42,720 bases of DNA from Candidatus Zixiibacteriota bacterium (GTDB taxonomy: Bacteria; Zixibacteria; MSB-5A5; GN15; JAAZOE01): positions 1 to 42,720 of the forward strand of contig JBDREQ010000072.1 of assembly GCA_043819555.1 (NCBI GenBank). The letters are read 5' to 3'. Shown here piece by piece: positions 9,001 to 27,000 of this stretch; the first letter of the stretch is position 1; each line of letters begins with the position of its first letter. Position numbers: made by a program.

Positions 9001-12000
9001 CGTCCAGAGATTGATAACGTCTCCAGTGTCAGTATCGGTTGATTCAATTTTCCAAACCAACTCTGTCGTTTCAATAATCGTCGTATCGCTAATCGGAGTT
9101 ATAACCGGCGGATTATTTTGAGCCGTGGCAATTGCCGGGATTGAAAAAAGGGCGATGACGAAAACAGCAATTTTAAAAAATTTCCAACTCATATTTTCAA
9201 GAACCAAACATCCGTTTACTCAAATTAACCTATTCCGGAGTATAGTCAATAGTATTATACAATATTCGCCAATCAAGGATTAATATTGTAACATCTGATG
9301 CAAAATTGATTGAACTGTCTCCAATCATACCATAAAAAAAGCCCTCTCAAATATGGGAGGGCTTTTGAAAAAAATCATGAAAACTTATCGCATCAAAACC
9401 ATTTTACGGGTTTCGACATATTCATCGGTAACCATTTTGTAAAAATAAATACCGGATGCGACTTCGTGACCGCTGTCATCATCGCCGTGCCATTCGATAA
9501 AATGGTTGCCGGCTTCAATTTCGCCACTGACCAGCGTATTTACTCTCTGACCAAGAATATTGAATACAGCAATATCAACCTGGCTCTTTCGGGCCAGTGA
9601 ATAATCAATACCGGTCACCGGGTTAAACGGGTTGGGATAATTCTGCTCCAGGCCGTATGTGTAAGCGATGGCGGGGTTATCACCTGCCGCTTGGCTCGCA
9701 GATTGTTCAACCATTACATTAATAGCGCCGCTAAATGCTGCAGCAATACCTCCACCACCCAGATCTACAAAAGTCCAGTCTCCGCTGGCGCCAATCTTGG
9801 AAGAATCAATAGTAAAATCAACAGCATTTCCCGGAACATCAAGAGAGAAGTTAAAATTGAACATATGTTCCATGGGGCCCACAATGAGACCGTTCCATAA
9901 GGCCACTCCGCCCAGAATAATTGAATCCGGAGCGATAGAATCAACATCTTGCTCGGTAACATAAAGACCTGTCATATCAAATGAACCCGTTGTGCCTGAT
10001 TCCGGCTTAAAACGGCTGGCACCCTCCACGGTAATGGCCCAGTCATCCTGACCGCCTGCTCCCCATCCGCCAGTTTGCGGTTCCCAGTTGACATTTATAG
10101 CAGCATCGCCTTTGAAAACCAAACCGAGGGACATGCCGCCCAGTATCACATCATTTTCAAGCGACATTTCAACTCGATACATTATAGGGTTGCCATCACC
10201 ATCCTGGGCGTAAATAGTTGAGCCATTGGTTTCATAGACACCGTCGGTAACATTATACAATGCGACAGCAACCGAATCAGCCGCCTGTGAAACGCCAAAT
10301 GACATTAACAAAACGGTTAAAAACGTTAACATTAAAATTCTCATACGCTCATGCCTCCATGCGCATTCTTTTTTGCGCTCATTGTTTTAAATTCTTAATT
10401 ACTTTCCATTTTGCTTTTTCTCATACTTAAGGACGCATGTGAAAAAGATACGTCAAATGAAAGTACGAAAAAATCTGTGCCAGTCAATAAAAAAATAGCA
10501 CTTTTTTTCAATATTACTATATGGCGGCGGAGGGTACTATTAAAATACTGGCCCGGTTCAATTATGTCAAGACATTTAATTTAGCGTTATTCAGCCAATC
10601 CCTTTCTGAAATCAAAAGTCTTAACGCCATTGGTAAATCCTTATATCCGTCTTTATTTTAATAAGTTATACGCCGCGAATGTGATAATTCGCGGCATATA
10701 TTCTGTTTTAATTATTAATCGGAGGCGGCCCCTGCTTGAAGATAAAGTTCACCAGATAAAGGGCGTCACCGATATTGACAATGGGACCATCGACACCATC
10801 GTTGTTTACATCAGCGGCTTCCATGACAACCGGAGCGGCTCCCTGCTTGAAGACAAAATTGACAATAAAGATAGCATCGGCAATATTGACCGTTTCGTCA
10901 TTATTCGCGTCGCCTCGCAGGAAGGTTGCTACCCGGGTCCATTTTAATAATGTATCCGTCAAGCCAGCAGGATCCTCGACAACGTATCGGAACAGGTGCA
11001 TTGCGCCATTTTGCGAGGCATCGGGAGTAAATGTCAAACTCGCCGCGCCGTTGCCCGAATCGACCAGAACCGAATTAGGCGGAGGATTTATCATCCAGAA
11101 AAATATTGGATCAAGATCAGGATCGATAGCCAGTATGTGGTATTCGATTGACTCTCCCAATATTACCGTCATCGTATCAGTCGGAGAAGTAAAGATTGGC
11201 GCCTGGTTACCGGCTTCCTGAACAGTTATCGACACATATTCTGAATCGGCCAAACCATCCTTGAGAGCAATAAAGAGAACATTATAGGTTCCCGCCTGAA
11301 CATAATTAGGCGTAAATCGGAATGTTTTGGGCATGCCGGCAGAGAATAAGATTTCCGAGTTCGTCGGATTATTCTGGACAATTATATCTGCGTTCCCGCC
11401 GCCGGGATTAGTTGCTGTTATTAAAACATCCAGAGTCTCACCTTCAACGACCGTCTGAGGGCCGATAGGTTCGAGAATCGGAGCAACGGGTACATTTGTA
11501 ACTGTGAAGTTTATCGGTCCAAATATTCCAAAGTCATCAGGGTAACTCGGATCATTGTCATAAGCCGCAAATATTAAAGCGTAGATTCCGGCCTGGGTAT
11601 AATTCGGCGTCAATGTCAGAGTCGCGGTACCGTTTCCATTATCGACAAAATTAAAGTTGGCCGTACTTTGTACCATTACCATTCGCGGCGGTATGCCATC
11701 GGGGTCAAAACCAGACAGATTATATACCAGAGTACCGCCTTCGGCCACCGTCTTAGTTTGACCCGGCGGAATCTCAAGAAGGTAAGGCAATCGGTTGACA
11801 TCATTAATTACGATTTGAATGATAACGCTATCTATCATAGTTCCGTCGTCGGCGTCGGTCGCATAGAACGTTAAATCATAAGTTCCCGCATCGGTATACG
11901 AAGTTATCCATTCAAATCTGCCCGTATAATTGCCATTGTCTACGAAAGTGGCTGTACCCGGCAGAGTCGAAGTAGATAATATCGGTACAACCAAATCAAG

Positions 12001-24000: not shown

Positions 24001-27000
24001 TCTCCCTCTGCAACATACACGTCGGGAACCGGCGTGAATATCGGCGGGCGATTTTGCTCACCGATTTGTACTTCCCCAGGAATAAACGCGGGAGTGAAAT
24101 TATTCAACCCACTGGCGTCGGATAGCAATAATTGACCTGCAGGCGGTAAAAACGTTGTATCAATGATTATTATTTCCCCGGGAATCAAATCATCTTTGGC
24201 TCTGAAATTTATTTTACAAATCGATCCGGAACCGGGCTGGATGTATTCTTCCATGATAACCACGGCGCCGATCAAAATTGTGCCGGTGGTTTCGCTGACT
24301 GTCACCGGCAGCATATTGAGGTATTCAATCCGACTTCCGGCAAAATCAACTTCCTGAAATTCAAGTTTATCTATGGGATATATGAGCGGTAAAGTAATTG
24401 CCCCCAATTCTTCATCGTTCCAGACATTGACGGTAACGCTGAAATTTCCTCCGGCTGGCACCGTATATTGGCCAATTGAAATTGTGTCGGTTTCGCCAAT
24501 TGGATCATTCTGGGCCAATACCGAGCCGAAGAGAAGAATCAAAACTATGTATGTCAGTGCAAATCTTTTCATCAAATGCCCAAATTTAAATGCTATACAA
24601 CTCCAGTCTCTATAAGAGCAAAAGGCTTACCAATCCCGGATAAGTCTCAAATTACCCTTAATAATTCTCATATATTTTTGCGATATGGTGCAAAACTCAG
24701 GCAATTATCAATACTTCCGACTATCGCAAAAAAAACCTAACCTTTTCGTTCCCAGTTCGTTATACCTATTAATCCAAAAACGCTTATCTCTCCCCAGACC
24801 AAAAAAACAGAGGCCCGAAATTGTAACTTTGTGAGGCATTAAATCCGTATGGCGAGTAATTGACAATCTTTACAATACAATCTGCACTATTTTGCAGCAT
24901 ATTGAAGACAGATGACGAGTAAAATCCGATTTTTAAAAAACGAAAAGCCCGCAAGCTATTGTCAGTTGGTATGTTAAGCTCTTTGTCGGGCATATGCTTA
25001 TTCCTTATTTCTCGGTCATGTCAATTCTTCATTATCTCGTACTCTATAAACCAACCTCCCTATTTTCTTATTCTTTAATTTAGTGATAAGGGTCACGAAG
25101 ACCCTTACCACCAAATTATAAAAACTGATTACTTCATCAGTACCATTTTCATAGTAGCTGAGTTAGCACCAGCAGTTACCTTGTAGAAATAGATACCGGA
25201 AGCAACGGACTTGCCGCTGGCATCTTTGGCATCCCAAACAACATTCACGGTTCCAGCTTCGCTGAATCCGTTAAATGTGTTCACACGCTGACCGGCAATG
25301 TTGTAAATCTCTACGGACCAATCTGAAGCATTGTTCAGATTGAAGCCCATGGTTGTGGTCGGGTTGAACGGGTTCGGGTAGTTCTGAGCGACGCTGAAGT
25401 TTGACGGAAGCGCATGGAAGCTGCTTTCCATCATGCTGCCGTTATAATCGGAAGCTTCAACGCTGATCAATTCGGCGTTACCATTGACCGGAATGGTCAT
25501 CAGATCGCCGGAAGTGATTGCTTCGGAACCAATGTTATAAACCAGGACACGGAGTTCGTTGTTCTCAAAGCTTGAGACGACGTCCATGTTGTTGTGCAGG
25601 ACCGGAGTACCGGCATCGCCTGTAACGTTAAAGACGAACAGGGCGGCGCCAGCGTCAACGCCGGTTTCCACACTAACATTCATGTTACCATTGACAAGCT
25701 GAGTTTTAACATCGAACAAAGTACCCGGAGCCGGCTTCGTGGCATACGGAAGCGCATCACCAATGATGACACGAACCAGATACACGAGGTCGGCGATGGT
25801 CAGGGCAGTACCGTCGGCATTCACATCGGAAGCCGCGATAGAACCGTCAACATGGACACCAAAGGCCGAAAGGCCAGTGATGAAATAGTTCGTGAACATA
25901 ACCGCATCAGCGATTTCATTCGCCAAACCGTTCATGTTGATGTCGCCGCGATCATCGATTTTATCCTTATCGATAATATCAATTCCGCCATTGAAGAAAT
26001 CAATAAAGCGAATCGGGGCGCCTTTATCGGTTCTGGTTTCACAGGCAACCGGAGCGCCGTACATGCCCGGGAAACCCCAGTTTCTATCCGTGACTTCAAT
26101 GTAGCTATCCCCACCGTCCATGCCATAGTAGTTATAGACGAAACGGGAGATAGCCAGAGAGTCACCGGAAGCGACCGAGATTACGTTGTCACCGCAGTCC
26201 ATCCAGAAGAAACTGACGTGGGCAAAGTAATCGTTGTAATTCACGTTAGTCGAGACAAAGAATGTCAGATTGACGAGAATTTGGCCATCACCGAGATTTA
26301 TAATACATTCATCATCAGGATGGACCGGGCCATTGTTAGTTTCGGCCATAGCGACAACACGAATTTCGCCGGAAGGACAGCCATTACCGCAATTGCCGTG
26401 TGAGCCATAGCGATAAGTGAAGTATTCCCATCCGCAATCCTGGAAGAATTGACCCAGTGATGCTTCAGTGAAGGTCAAAACGGTCGGGTCATAAGCCAAC
26501 AGGAAGTCAAAGCCGCCCATTTCTTCTGAACCCTTTTTCAGCCAAATCGGAAGATCAACATAGTGACCCTGAATGACATCATGAAGTTTATCAATAACCA
26601 CCTCATACGGTGTGGTTAATAATACATCGACTTCGAATGTACATTCAACCGGATCAGCAATACCGTCGCTGACGCTTACGGTTATCATATGAGAACCAAT
26701 GTCCTCAAAAGCGGTCGTCCAGGTGAATTCACCCGTGCCGGCATTAATAGCCATATCACCGATAGGCGGAGAAACCAAGGCATAAATCAATCCATCACAG
26801 CCATCGGCATCGGAACCAACAATATCATCCTTTATAATCATGGATGTAAAGCCGACCGGATTGTAGGCTAATCCACAATTGATAGTCGGGATTTTGTTGG
26901 TGACCGTCACTGCGATCTCATATGATGCACAATCGCCATTGGCGGCATCGCCAGCTGTAACAGTAATAGTTACGGCTGAACCAACATCGGCCGCCGCACC

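What a model noticed while it worked through the whole genome (the two positions that open the first line are those of the whole stretch)
10708..24572. Forty dockerin proteins, none a glycoside hydrolase, and T9SS-anchored cohesin proteins: a peptidase-loaded cellulosome- [...]
The genome encodes 40 Dockerin_1 proteins (32 with the dockerin within 18 residues of the C-terminus, most with a signal-peptide-like start) and 6 cohesin proteins, 5 of which end in a T9SS sorting domain (e.g. g02412, g02413 at C72:19616-24572 beside the 2962-aa g02411; g01256, 2537 aa, C29). Thirteen dockerin proteins are peptidases of seven families (S8 x3, M28 x5, M1, M6, M14, C10, trypsin-like) and none carries a glycoside-hydrolase domain. 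Boldest reading: this bacterium hangs a protein-degrading, not polysaccharide-degrading, multi-enzyme complex on its outer membrane through T9SS-attached scaffoldins, a dedicated 'proteolysome' for scavenging detrital protein.
Evidence so far: pfam.tsv counts and positions: 40 genes with Dockerin_1 with architectures; Cohesin in g00963, g01256, g01845, g02116, g02412, g02413 (E 1e-6 to 4e-10); FlgD_ig/Por_Secre_tail or NCBIfam 'T9SS type A sorting domain' on 5 of them; 42 T9SS-CTD proteins in all; SprA, PorU, PorV present. relatives.tsv: Dockerin_1 in 81% and Cohesin in 35% of 284 Zixibacteria genomes against 8% and 7% of bacteria. g00963 (cohesin) and g00964 (dockerin) are adjacent. No paper holds 'Zixibacteria' and 'dockerin'.
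(Added by a program. Inside this text positions count along the whole contig: contig position 1 is position 1 of the stretch shown here. "Call 12" and the like, gene names such as g00115 and contig names such as C1 are that model's own, and its searches are not shown. The text may have been shortened before it was handed on; [...] marks where a part breaks off. The agent that wrote the report below was given it as the finding of a first reader that could run no searches.)

Follow-up and report, generated by a model that had tools for sequence, protein, structure and literature searches.

The report
Zixibacterial cohesin-dockerin surface docking system
An uncultured Zixibacteria bacterium puts a 'plug' module (dockerin) on about sixty exported proteins, a quarter of them proteases, and a matching 'socket' (cohesin) on proteins sent out by its type IX secretion system, so this looks like a general surface-display kit and not a dedicated protein-digesting machine.

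Summary
The genome has 63 dockerin ORFs (not 40). It has 11 Pfam cohesin ORFs, or 22-23 with a lineage-specific profile (not 6), and 15 of the 23 carry a T9SS sorting domain. Seventeen dockerin proteins are peptidases of nine families. None has a detectable glycoside-hydrolase catalytic domain.

The window holds an operon-like cluster conserved in two other Zixibacteria: three cohesin+CTD genes and a 2966-aa repeat adhesin ending in a dockerin.

The 'proteolysome' reading is only partly supported:
- 46 of 63 dockerin proteins are not peptidases; they are propellers, adhesins or unknowns.
- Nine peptidases carry a T9SS domain directly.
- No T9SS cargo examined has a GH either.
- The most conserved cohesin protein has one cohesin, so it anchors rather than scaffolds.

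New here: dockerin and T9SS domain are mutually exclusive C-terminal tags on homologous proteins (41 versus 73 of 120, none with both). The two dockerin-free families lack or nearly lack cohesins and have about three times as many T9SS-tagged proteins.

Binding is untested. How CTD-less dockerin proteins cross the outer membrane remains open.

The idea is in print for Cloacimonadota, not Zixibacteria. This scan has already noted similar loci on other DNA, including Zixibacteria.

The parts
25129..27849 (-). 906-aa exported protein: cohesin-like module (about 26110-26643) and a C-terminal T9SS type A sorting domain (25141-25380)
   Evidence: Pfam Cohesin 24.4 bits against a 24.1 cut-off and Por_Secre_tail. 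Own cohesin profile iE 3e-23. TIGR04183 46.2 bits against 23. Orthologues of 901 and 913 aa sit at the same place in L105 and L104.
22173..24575 (-). g02413, 800 aa: signal peptide, cohesin 1 (24057-24524), Big_9/cadherin-like spacer, cohesin 2 (23031-23510), T9SS sorting domain (22185-22424)
   Evidence: Pfam Cohesin 47.3 bits. Own profile iE 1.5e-49 and 2.8e-27. The AF2 model of cohesin 1 has pLDDT 91.3, and its best PDB matches are all cohesins at TM 0.74-0.81, E 7e-11. TIGR04183 43.1 bits. Orthologues at 62% and 59% identity over residues 2-800.
19616..22135 (-). g02412, 839 aa: Big_9, cohesin (20501-21004), directly followed by a divergent internal dockerin (20375-20539), then a T9SS sorting domain (19628-19879)
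   Evidence: Pfam Cohesin 54.7 bits; Dockerin_1 19.0 bits and 23.7 bits. TIGR04183 27.8 bits against 23. It starts 37 bp after g02413 ends. Orthologues of 836 and 847 aa in L104 and L105.
10708..19608 (-). g02411, 2966-aa repeat adhesin-like protein with a signal peptide and a C-terminal dockerin of the genome's main class (about 10711-10941)
   Evidence: Big_9 in 18 stretches, tandem-95 repeat in 16. Dockerin 27.6 bits; alignment. It starts 7 bp after g02412 ends. The orthologue L115:539-11203 is 65% identical over 2950 aa and also ends in a dockerin.
10672..10695 (.). 9-bp-stem hairpin 13 nt downstream of the g02411 stop; possible end of the transcription unit
   Evidence: Terminator-like sites in the region are no more frequent than in shuffles (18 against 18.2), so this is weak.
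9385..10344 (-). 319-aa protein with a T9SS sorting domain; no other domain found
   Evidence: Pfam FlgD_ig and Por_Secre_tail.
5947..9207 (-). 1086-aa Big_9 repeat protein with a T9SS sorting domain (direct T9SS cargo)
   Evidence: Pfam. It is not homologous to the 1097-aa dockerin protein at the equivalent place in G285.

Best explanation
This is a type IX secretion-linked cohesin-dockerin docking system.

HOW IT MOST LIKELY WORKS
- Cohesin proteins have a Sec signal peptide and a C-terminal type A sorting domain. They are exported through the T9SS and, by analogy with other type A cargo, processed by PorU and left on the cell surface (inferred).
- About sixty other Sec-exported proteins lack a sorting domain. 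They end instead in one uniform class of type-I-like, internally symmetric dockerin (short motif GDANxDGxxNVGDAVYLINxVFKGGP, present twice, flanked by Cys).
- These dockerins most likely bind the cohesins in a calcium-dependent way (inferred). That displays peptidases, propeller or lectin-like binding proteins and giant adhesins on the cell.

IN THE WINDOW
- A conserved, tightly spaced gene set encodes two or three such anchors or adaptors and the 2966-aa dockerin-tagged adhesin that probably docks on them.

FUNCTIONAL READING
- The dockerin works as a trans-acting substitute for a cis sorting domain.
- The system is a general display platform with a strong proteolytic component. It is not a dedicated protease complex.

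SHOWN: the modules, their folds, counts, synteny, phyletic coupling and tag exclusivity.
INFERRED: binding, surface anchoring, calcium dependence, and the route across the outer membrane.
For: MODULES ARE REAL
- The cohesin 1 model of g02413 has pLDDT 91.3. Its top Foldseek PDB hits are all cohesins (6kgf, 3ul4 OlpA, 4ums, 2vn6; E about 1e-10; TM 0.74-0.81), with 128 hits at E<=1e-3.
- The dockerin profile A2 matches 30 solved dockerin sequences. The best is C. thermocellum CelS 1daq, E 3.3e-12, over 62 of 72 positions.
- The Ca-ligand Asp/Asn positions of both repeats are invariant or nearly so across 60 copies.

T9SS LINK
- 15 of 23 cohesin ORFs carry a sorting domain.
- SprA and PorU are present.

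PHYLETIC COUPLING ACROSS 285 GENOMES
- 239 have both modules, 38 dockerin only, 2 cohesin only, 6 neither.
- All 5 tested 'dockerin only' genomes have 4-18 cohesins by the lineage profile A1.
- Five dockerin-free genomes have 0, 0, 0, 1 and 2 weak matches.

GENE LINKAGE
- 4 of 22 cohesin ORFs have a separate dockerin ORF within 500 bp. Random placement gives a mean of 0.37, and 0 of 2000 trials reach 4.
- The window's gene order is conserved in two other Zixibacteria, down to the dockerin on the giant protein.

TAG EQUIVALENCE
- L004 (M28 + dockerin, 943 aa) is collinear with a 959-aa M28 protein of a dockerin-free genome that ends in Por_Secre_tail (residues 2-678, E 2e-35).
- Among the 120 best homologues of the L017 N-domain, 41 end in a dockerin, 73 in a T9SS-like domain, 0 in both and 6 in neither.
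- Five genomes of the two dockerin-free families have 115 to 150 or more sorting-domain hits, against 41 in this genome.

GENERAL RATHER THAN PROTEASE-ONLY
- Domain content of the dockerin ORFs.
- Nine peptidases with their own sorting domain.
Against: - No binding evidence of any kind was obtained.
- Dockerins (63 ORFs) outnumber cohesin modules (about 30) two to one.
- Dockerin proteins have no known signal for crossing the outer membrane.
- Type A sorting-domain cargo is released rather than anchored in some T9SS organisms (my knowledge of Flavobacterium; not tested here).
- PorV is only sub-threshold, and no GldM was found, though that search was uninformative.
- The lineage cohesin profile may have drifted towards generic beta-sandwiches for its weakest members (iE 1e-4 to 1e-8).
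- The CTD-versus-dockerin trade-off rests on few independent lineages (f6, and f16-f18). Family f2 (108 genomes) is low in both. G248 is high in both.
- The per-genome CTD figures across the phylum are first-look candidate counts, not scored hits.
- The T9SS-like tails of the 73 homologues were called with my own HMM at a modest median E of 8e-7. The precomputed Pfam labels named only 7 of them.
Confidence: 0.6

Rival explanations
1. Dedicated 'proteolysome': the system exists to assemble several peptidases on multi-cohesin scaffoldins into one protein-degrading complex for scavenging detrital protein.
For: - 17 of 63 dockerin ORFs are peptidases of nine families, mixing endo- and exopeptidases.
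- No other enzyme class was recognised on dockerin proteins.
- One scaffoldin (L024, C20:56800-60600) has 4 cohesins.
- An Atlas cluster of M28 proteins, 51% of them with a dockerin, is commonest in Zixibacteria (a lead only).
Against: - 46 of 63 dockerin ORFs are not peptidases.
- 9 peptidases use a cis sorting domain instead.
- No GH is present on T9SS cargo either, so the GH absence is a property of the whole secretome examined.
- Most cohesin proteins are monovalent.
- The window's own dockerin cargo is an adhesin.
- BACON_2 sits on scaffoldins, and a CAZyme-type N-domain fold is found in the L012/L016/L017 family.
Confidence: 0.2
2. Carrier model: cohesin+CTD proteins are carriers as well as anchors. 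Dockerin proteins bind them in the periplasm and cross the outer membrane through the T9SS as a folded complex ('hitch-hiking').
For: - Dockerin and sorting domain are mutually exclusive alternatives on homologous exoproteins (0 of 120 carry both). A sorting domain supplies export as well as anchoring.
- The best-conserved cohesin protein is nothing but signal peptide + cohesin + CTD: 277 aa, 6934 homologues at E<=1e-5 among 8000 scored.
- 52 of 62 dockerin ORFs have Sec-type starts, no lipobox and no CTD.
- The T2SS-like cluster's 527-aa component was found in only 150 of 285 genomes. It was found in none of the dockerin-rich families f5, f9, f13 and f14 with this query.
Against: - No precedent known to me exists for trans cargo in the T9SS.
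- A T2SS-like gene set (ATPase, platform protein, two pseudopilins, secretin) exists in this genome next to dockerin genes.
- The absences come from a single divergent query (20-25% identity even within the order), so they are inconclusive.
- A 2966-aa passenger seems demanding.
Confidence: 0.15
3. The dockerin-like modules do not bind the cohesins. They act as calcium-binding stabilising tails, or bind another receptor (LPS, S-layer, substrate), and the cohesin proteins are unrelated surface proteins.
For: - Dockerins outnumber cohesin modules two to one.
- Most dockerin genes are not next to cohesin genes: 11 of 22 cohesin ORFs have none within 10 kb.
- Non-cellulosomal dockerin-like modules without scaffoldins are known in many organisms (ANME paper PMC9012536, passages read).
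Against: - The two modules are coupled in presence and absence across the phylum.
- Adjacency within 500 bp exceeds chance.
- Cohesin and dockerin recur in one polypeptide (g02412, L033, L038, L039).
- The cohesin fold is canonical, and the dockerin is type-I-like with both repeats intact.
Confidence: 0.1

Closest known systems
Predicted cellulosome-like complex of 'Ca. Stygibacter' (Cloacimonadota), Williams et al. 2021, PMC8542988 (abstract and passages read)
   Same: - Signal-peptide enzymes carry C-terminal dockerins, including S8/S53 and C25 peptidases.
- A cohesin-bearing scaffoldin ends in a T9SS CTD for attachment to the cell.
- The system was inferred from MAGs only.
   Different: - The Stygibacter system has one 3755-aa scaffoldin with tandem cohesins and CBM2/CBM3, and its cargo includes GH18 and GH57.
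- Here about 22 mostly mono- or divalent cohesin proteins are found, with no CBM2/3 (BACON_2 instead) and no GH cargo.
- Here there are about 60 cargo proteins, dominated by non-enzymes.
- Here the trait is phylum-wide and shows dockerin/CTD tag exclusivity.
Clostridial cellulosome and its single-cohesin anchoring proteins (C. thermocellum CipA, OlpA, OlpC; PDB 3ul4, 4dh2, 1ohz)
   Same: - Type-I-like cohesin fold: TM 0.79 to 3ul4.
- Two-repeat dockerin: the best profile match is the CelS dockerin 1daq.
- The cast is the same: anchoring proteins, adaptor proteins with cohesin plus dockerin, and one multi-cohesin scaffoldin.
   Different: - This is a diderm host.
- Anchoring is through a T9SS sorting domain rather than SLH domains or sortase.
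- The cargo is peptidases and adhesins, not cellulases.
- The dockerin is flanked by conserved Cys residues.
Ordinary T9SS cargo with a cis C-terminal sorting domain (e.g. gingipains of Porphyromonas gingivalis; my knowledge, not tested here)
   Same: - The same kinds of passenger are seen (C25, S8, M6, M28 peptidases, Ig-repeat adhesins).
- The presumed destination is the same.
- Homologues of the dockerin proteins carry this domain instead.
   Different: The sorting information is supplied in trans by a separate cohesin+CTD protein. That has not been described for the T9SS in the papers I searched.
Non-cellulosomal cohesin/dockerin repertoires (ANME archaea, PMC9012536, passages read) and mucinolysomes of Limousia (PMC12997984, abstract in the search listing only)
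   Same: Large dockerin/cohesin complements are used for something other than cellulose degradation.
   Different: - The ANME cargo is mainly substrate-binding proteins and S-layer proteins in a monoderm archaeal envelope.
- Mucinolysomes are Gram-positive, GH-based systems.

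Membership tests
Cohesin (Pfam PF00963) | Sequence match to the family model above the curated cut-off | tested here: met
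   g02412 scores 54.7 bits, g02413 47.3 bits and the 906-aa protein 24.4 bits, against a cut-off of 24.1.
Cohesin (Pfam PF00963) | Nine-stranded jelly-roll beta-sandwich fold of solved cohesins | tested here: met
   The AF2 model of g02413 cohesin 1 has pLDDT 91.3 and pTM 0.85. Its top Foldseek PDB hits are all cohesins, at E 7e-11 to 1e-9 and TM 0.74-0.81.
Cohesin (Pfam PF00963) | Binds a dockerin | not testable with these tools
   This needs in-vitro binding or a validated complex model.
Dockerin type I (Pfam PF00404) | Two tandem ~22-residue calcium-binding segments, each followed by a helix | tested here: met
   - 60 of 65 six-frame hits are over the cut-off, and most cover profile positions 2-56 of 57.
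- In the 60-row alignment G10, D11, D22 and D59 are invariant, and N13, D15, D44, N46 and D48 are at 90% or more.
- The profile matches 30 solved dockerins, the best at 3.3e-12.
Dockerin type I (Pfam PF00404) | Calcium-dependent folding and cohesin binding | not testable with these tools
T9SS type A cargo (TIGR04183 / PF18962) | C-terminal sorting domain above the curated cut-off | tested here: met
   TIGR04183 scores 43.1, 27.8 and 46.2 bits against a cut-off of 23 for the three window cohesin proteins. The genome has 41 Por_Secre_tail hits.
T9SS type A cargo (TIGR04183 / PF18962) | Host encodes the T9SS translocon and sortase | tested here: inconclusive
   - SprA_N scores 67.8 bits in a 2023-aa frame.
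- PorU scores 623 bits against a 420 cut-off.
- The PorV-like gene beside PorU scores 90.7 bits against 250.
- GldM/PorM TIGR03517 gave no hit, but that model rang in no control genome either.
- PorK, PorL and PorN were not searched.
Cellulosome (sensu stricto) | Dockerin-bearing glycoside hydrolases as the main cargo | tested here: not met
   0 of 63 dockerin ORFs have a GH catalytic domain by Pfam or NCBIfam. One family has only the non-catalytic N-domain fold of GH116/GH15/GH94 enzymes.
Cellulosome (sensu stricto) | Scaffoldin with several cohesins and a carbohydrate-binding module | tested here: inconclusive
   L024 has 4 cohesin modules by my own profile plus BACON_2. No CBM2 or CBM3 was found. 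BACON_2 binding specificity is not known to me.
   17 of 63 dockerin ORFs are peptidases. The other 46 are propellers, adhesin-like proteins, a lectin, DUF proteins or unknowns.

The most novel reading that the evidence does not exclude
In Zixibacteria the dockerin has become a trans-acting type IX secretion tag. A minimal signal peptide + cohesin + CTD adaptor supplies the sorting domain in trans, so dockerin-tagged proteins hitch-hike through the T9SS as folded complexes and end up anchored by their carrier.

This would explain three observations:
- Dockerin and CTD are mutually exclusive on homologous exoproteins.
- Lineages without dockerins and with few or no cohesins have about three times as many CTD proteins.
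- CTD-less dockerin proteins would have a way out of the periplasm.
Probability: 0.15. Interest if true: 0.85.

Novelty: new variant of a known kind. Interest (0 to 1): 0.55.

Why it matters
Zixibacteria are widespread, uncultured sediment and groundwater bacteria. If the reading holds, roughly 60% of this genome's tagged exoproteins (63 dockerin ORFs against 41 sorting-domain hits) reach the surface through a two-part plug-and-socket system. That would shape how these cells attach to particles and digest protein.

More generally, dockerin and T9SS sorting domain appear interchangeable on homologous proteins, both within and between lineages. This gives a concrete, testable hypothesis about modular surface targeting in diderm bacteria: can the T9SS accept or anchor cargo in trans? 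It also suggests a natural design for surface display in T9SS hosts.

Tried and rejected
- Complex prediction, g02413 cohesin 1 with the g02411 dockerin and 2 Ca. The score was 0.19, under the 0.32 mark, and the verdict was 'no answer'. It is used neither for nor against binding.
- CTD/dockerin swap at the window's edge. The 1086-aa CTD protein (5947-9207) and the 1097-aa dockerin protein at the equivalent place in G285 are not homologous (best E 0.94). This is not a tag swap.
- GldM search. There was no hit, but the model rang in no control genome, so the result is uninformative.
- T2SS-like component across the phylum. It was found in 150 of 285 genomes, almost only in families f1-f4. It is a single divergent query, so absence elsewhere means only 'not found with this query'. 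It does not decide the export route.
- Protein Atlas look-ups for two unannotated dockerin proteins. No hit reached 0.9, and one query had no usable hit.
- Promoter and terminator scan. Terminator-like sites are no more frequent than in shuffles.
- First phylum-wide CTD search. I set E too strict, so only 22 genomes were listed. I repeated it at E<=1e-4.
- Peer et al. 2009 (PMC3035643) is not held. What I say about it comes only from citations in other papers.
- Sequencing runs. Only small shares were found. A groundwater RNA-library run holds three 154-222-nt contigs at 99% identity or better, on 19567-19784, 24029-24183 and 24400-24584. DNA can be present in such libraries and no silent stretch could be laid, so transcription is not shown.
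- Hidden GH check on the L012/L016/L017 family. Only a non-catalytic CAZyme-type N-domain fold was found, with no catalytic domain.

Full report
WHAT IS IN THE WINDOW

The stretch 5947-27849 carries six genes on the minus strand. All of them encode exported surface-type proteins.
- A 906-aa protein with a weak cohesin (24.4 bits against a 24.1 cut-off) and a T9SS type A sorting domain (TIGR04183 46.2 bits against 23).
- g02413, 800 aa: a cohesin at 47.3 bits, a second cohesin seen only with a lineage profile (iE 2.8e-27), and a sorting domain at 43.1 bits.
- g02412, 839 aa: a cohesin at 54.7 bits, followed at once by a divergent dockerin, then a sorting domain at 27.8 bits.
- g02411, 2966 aa: 18 Big_9 / 16 'tandem-95' repeats and a C-terminal dockerin.
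- A 319-aa protein and a 1086-aa Big_9 protein, each with a sorting domain.

g02413, g02412 and g02411 are separated by 37 and 7 bp. A 9-bp-stem hairpin follows the g02411 stop (weak evidence). The flanking genes are unrelated: a leaderless GH35-like protein, gamma-glutamyltranspeptidase, a MatE/polysaccharide exporter, a KAP NTPase and IleRS.

THE LOCUS IS CONSERVED

Full-length relatives of g02413 (62% and 59% identity) occur only in two records titled Candidatus Zixiibacteriota. Hits in other phyla match the sorting domain only. Both relatives keep the gene order: exporter, a ~370-aa gene, a ~905-aa gene, a ~800-aa gene, a ~840-aa gene, then the giant gene. The giant orthologue is 65% identical over 2950 residues and also ends in a dockerin.

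GENOME-WIDE COUNTS

Dockerins
- Dockerin_1 gives 65 six-frame hits at E<=0.01, 60 of them over Pfam's cut-off.
- These lie in 63 ORFs of 245 aa or more plus one 51-aa frame.
- 49 of 63 ORFs end within 18 residues after the match.
- 52 of 62 examined have signal-peptide-like starts, and none matched my lipobox pattern (a crude rule; L039 not examined).
- The dockerins form one uniform class with two near-identical repeats and conserved flanking Cys residues.
- The profile's best solved relatives are type I dockerins, with CelS 1daq at E 3.3e-12.
- Divergent dockerins occur only inside cohesin- or CTD-bearing proteins (g02412, L033, L044) and in DUF7901 proteins.

Cohesins
- Pfam finds 13 cohesin hits in 11 ORFs.
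- A profile built from the genome's own modules, run for two rounds, finds 30 modules in 23 ORFs.
- L024 has four modules and BACON_2 domains. g02413 and L082 have two each, and L033 has two or three.
- Three ~270-aa proteins consist of signal peptide + cohesin + CTD (L055, L071, L075).
- 15 of the 23 cohesin ORFs carry a sorting domain.
- The weakest members of this set (iE 1e-4 to 1e-8) may reflect profile drift.
- The cohesin 1 model of g02413 is confident (pLDDT 91.3), and its best PDB matches are all cohesins.

WHAT THE DOCKERIN PROTEINS ARE
- Seventeen of 63 are peptidases: S8 x4, M28 x5, M6 x2, and one each of M1, M14, C10, Trypsin_2, M43 and MXAN_6640-HExxH.
- The remainder include FG-GAP, LVIVD, PQQ, WD40 and SBBP propellers, PKD/TSP3/Ig proteins, a C-type lectin, three DUF7901 proteins, the giant adhesin, and about 16 proteins without annotation.
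- None has a GH catalytic domain at Pfam E<=1e-4. The 16 unannotated ORFs have none even at E<=0.5. NCBIfam adds none.

Control: the other tagged exoproteins
- I scanned 33 further ORFs that carry sorting domains or cohesins.
- Nine are peptidases with a cis sorting domain (C25, S8 x4, M6 x2, C1, M28).
- None has a GH.
- Protease richness and GH poverty therefore describe the whole tagged secretome examined, not the dockerin subset.

Check on the 'hidden GH' caveat
- I modelled the N-terminal 450 residues of the three-member family L012/L016/L017 (pLDDT 83.6).
- The model aligns at Z 18-19 (250-287 residues, rmsd 3-4 Å) to the non-catalytic N-terminal beta-supersandwich domains of GH116, GH15, GH94 and GH65 enzymes.
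- No catalytic domain was found in the rest of the protein, but that part was not modelled.
- This is a lead that some cargo may bind or act on glycans. It is not a GH.

ARE DOCKERINS AND COHESINS FUNCTIONALLY COUPLED?

Across the 285 genomes of the phylum, Dockerin_1 is in 277 and Pfam Cohesin in 241. Reading the two tables together gives:
- 239 genomes with both,
- 38 with dockerin only,
- 2 with cohesin only,
- 6 with neither.

The 'dockerin only' class is a sensitivity artefact. All 5 such genomes tested have 4-18 cohesins by my profile A1. Five dockerin-free genomes give 0, 0, 0, 1 and 2 weak matches.

Within the genome, 4 of 22 cohesin ORFs have a separate dockerin ORF within 500 bp. Random placement gives a mean of 0.37, and 0 of 2000 trials reach 4. 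Relatives are not independent, and the dockerin-free genomes belong to only two families.

DOCKERIN AND SORTING DOMAIN ARE ALTERNATIVE TAGS
- L004 (M28 + dockerin, 943 aa) is collinear over residues 2-678 (E 2e-35) with a 959-aa M28 protein from a dockerin-free genome. That protein ends in Por_Secre_tail.
- Three more homologues from that family also end in a sorting domain.
- Among the 120 best homologues of the L017 N-domain, 41 end in a dockerin, 73 in a T9SS-like domain, none in both and 6 in neither. These were called with my own HMMs. The reversed-sequence control gave 0 CTD hits and 1 dockerin hit, and the median CTD E-value was 8e-7.
- The dockerin-free genomes G023, G262, G263, G264 and G266 have 128, 115, 121, at least 150 and at least 150 sorting-domain hits. 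This genome has 41.
- Phylum-wide, first-look candidate counts above 100 occur in 27 of 32 genomes of families f6, f16, f17 and f18. They occur in none of the other 253 genomes.
- 25 of those 27 genomes have 0-10 dockerin hits.

Against a simple trade-off: family f2 is low in both, G248 is high in both, and the number of independent events may be as low as two.

THE OPEN PROBLEM: CROSSING THE OUTER MEMBRANE
- The genome has a type IV pilus secretin set. It also has a T2SS-like set (ATPase with MshEN domain, platform protein, two pseudopilins, a 527-aa PilM/GspL-like protein and a secretin) beside dockerin genes on contig C73.
- The 527-aa component was found in 150 of 285 genomes, almost only in families f1-f4. 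The query is too divergent to read absence elsewhere.
- The alternative is that cohesin+CTD proteins carry dockerin cargo through the T9SS. I can neither support nor exclude this here.

LITERATURE
- No paper in the library holds 'Zixibacteria' and 'dockerin'.
- The top 15 of a broader search on Zixibacteria, cellulosome, cohesin and T9SS contained no Zixibacteria paper.
- The same concept is in print for Ca. Stygibacter, Cloacimonadota: dockerin peptidases and GHs, and a cohesin scaffoldin with a CTD (PMC8542988, passages read).
- Large non-cellulosomal repertoires are described for ANME archaea (PMC9012536, passages read).
- Substrate-specialised 'mucinolysomes' are described for Limousia (PMC12997984, abstract in the listing only).
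- NCBI already labels members of the 277-aa family as 'cohesin domain-containing' or 'T9SS type A sorting domain-containing' proteins.
- Supplements were not consulted.

EARLIER FINDINGS OF THIS SCAN

80 notes in at least 75 genomes hold the words dockerin, cohesin, T9SS and sorting. Three follow-ups on other Zixibacteria reached the same 'docking platform' reading. No note holds the hitch-hiking idea.

VERDICT

The best reading is a T9SS-linked cohesin-dockerin display system with mixed cargo (confidence 0.6). The strict 'proteolysome' reading is weaker (0.2). The system is a new variant of a known kind. Its most interesting aspect is the interchangeability of dockerin and sorting domain.

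Noticed in passing
G000 contigs C9:93801-96656, C14:27988-30858, C14:30874-33828 (L012, L016, L017): This is a three-member dockerin protein family, and many of its homologues are CTD-tagged. Its N-terminal 450 residues fold like the N-terminal beta-supersandwich of GH116/GH15/GH94 enzymes (Z 18-19). The 32-row alignment has many invariant Asp/Trp/His residues. The function is unknown; it may bind or act on carbohydrate.
   Followed up: partly
Phylum-wide: Genomes of families f6, f16, f17 and f18 have two to five times as many T9SS sorting-domain candidates (over 100) as all other Zixibacteria families (96 at most). They have few or no dockerins.
   Followed up: partly
G285:C1:2391418-2392539, and 2305865-2307547: A relative's genome (128 dockerin hits in all) has one 596-aa frame with five dockerin matches in a row. 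It also has a run of four ~100-aa frames that are little more than a dockerin each.
   Followed up: no
G000 C49:3-3488, C78:3-3098, C73:292827-297695 (L040, L066, L063): Three large proteins carry two DUF7901 domains each and a variant dockerin. In two of them the dockerin is internal, followed by 500-800 further residues.
   Followed up: no
window 31732-34683: A 983-aa KAP-family P-loop NTPase lies in the lowest-GC part of the window (0.36 against about 0.45), on the opposite strand from the surface-protein cluster.
   Followed up: no
window 19567-19784, 24029-24183, 24400-24584: A groundwater metatranscriptome library holds three short contigs at 99% identity or better to g02412/g02411 and g02413. 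One spans the g02412-g02411 junction. Transcription is not shown.
   Followed up: partly
G000 C73:158751-166599 (L103): A T2SS-like gene set (T2SSE with MshEN domain, T2SSF, two pseudopilins, a 527-aa PilM/GspL-like protein, a secretin with STN domain) lies within 2 kb of a dockerin-tagged HExxH metalloprotease gene (L060).
   Followed up: partly
window 28148-29266: A 372-aa ORF without any Pfam match lies upstream of the cluster. It has counterparts of 364 and 379 aa at the same position in both syntenic relatives.
   Followed up: no
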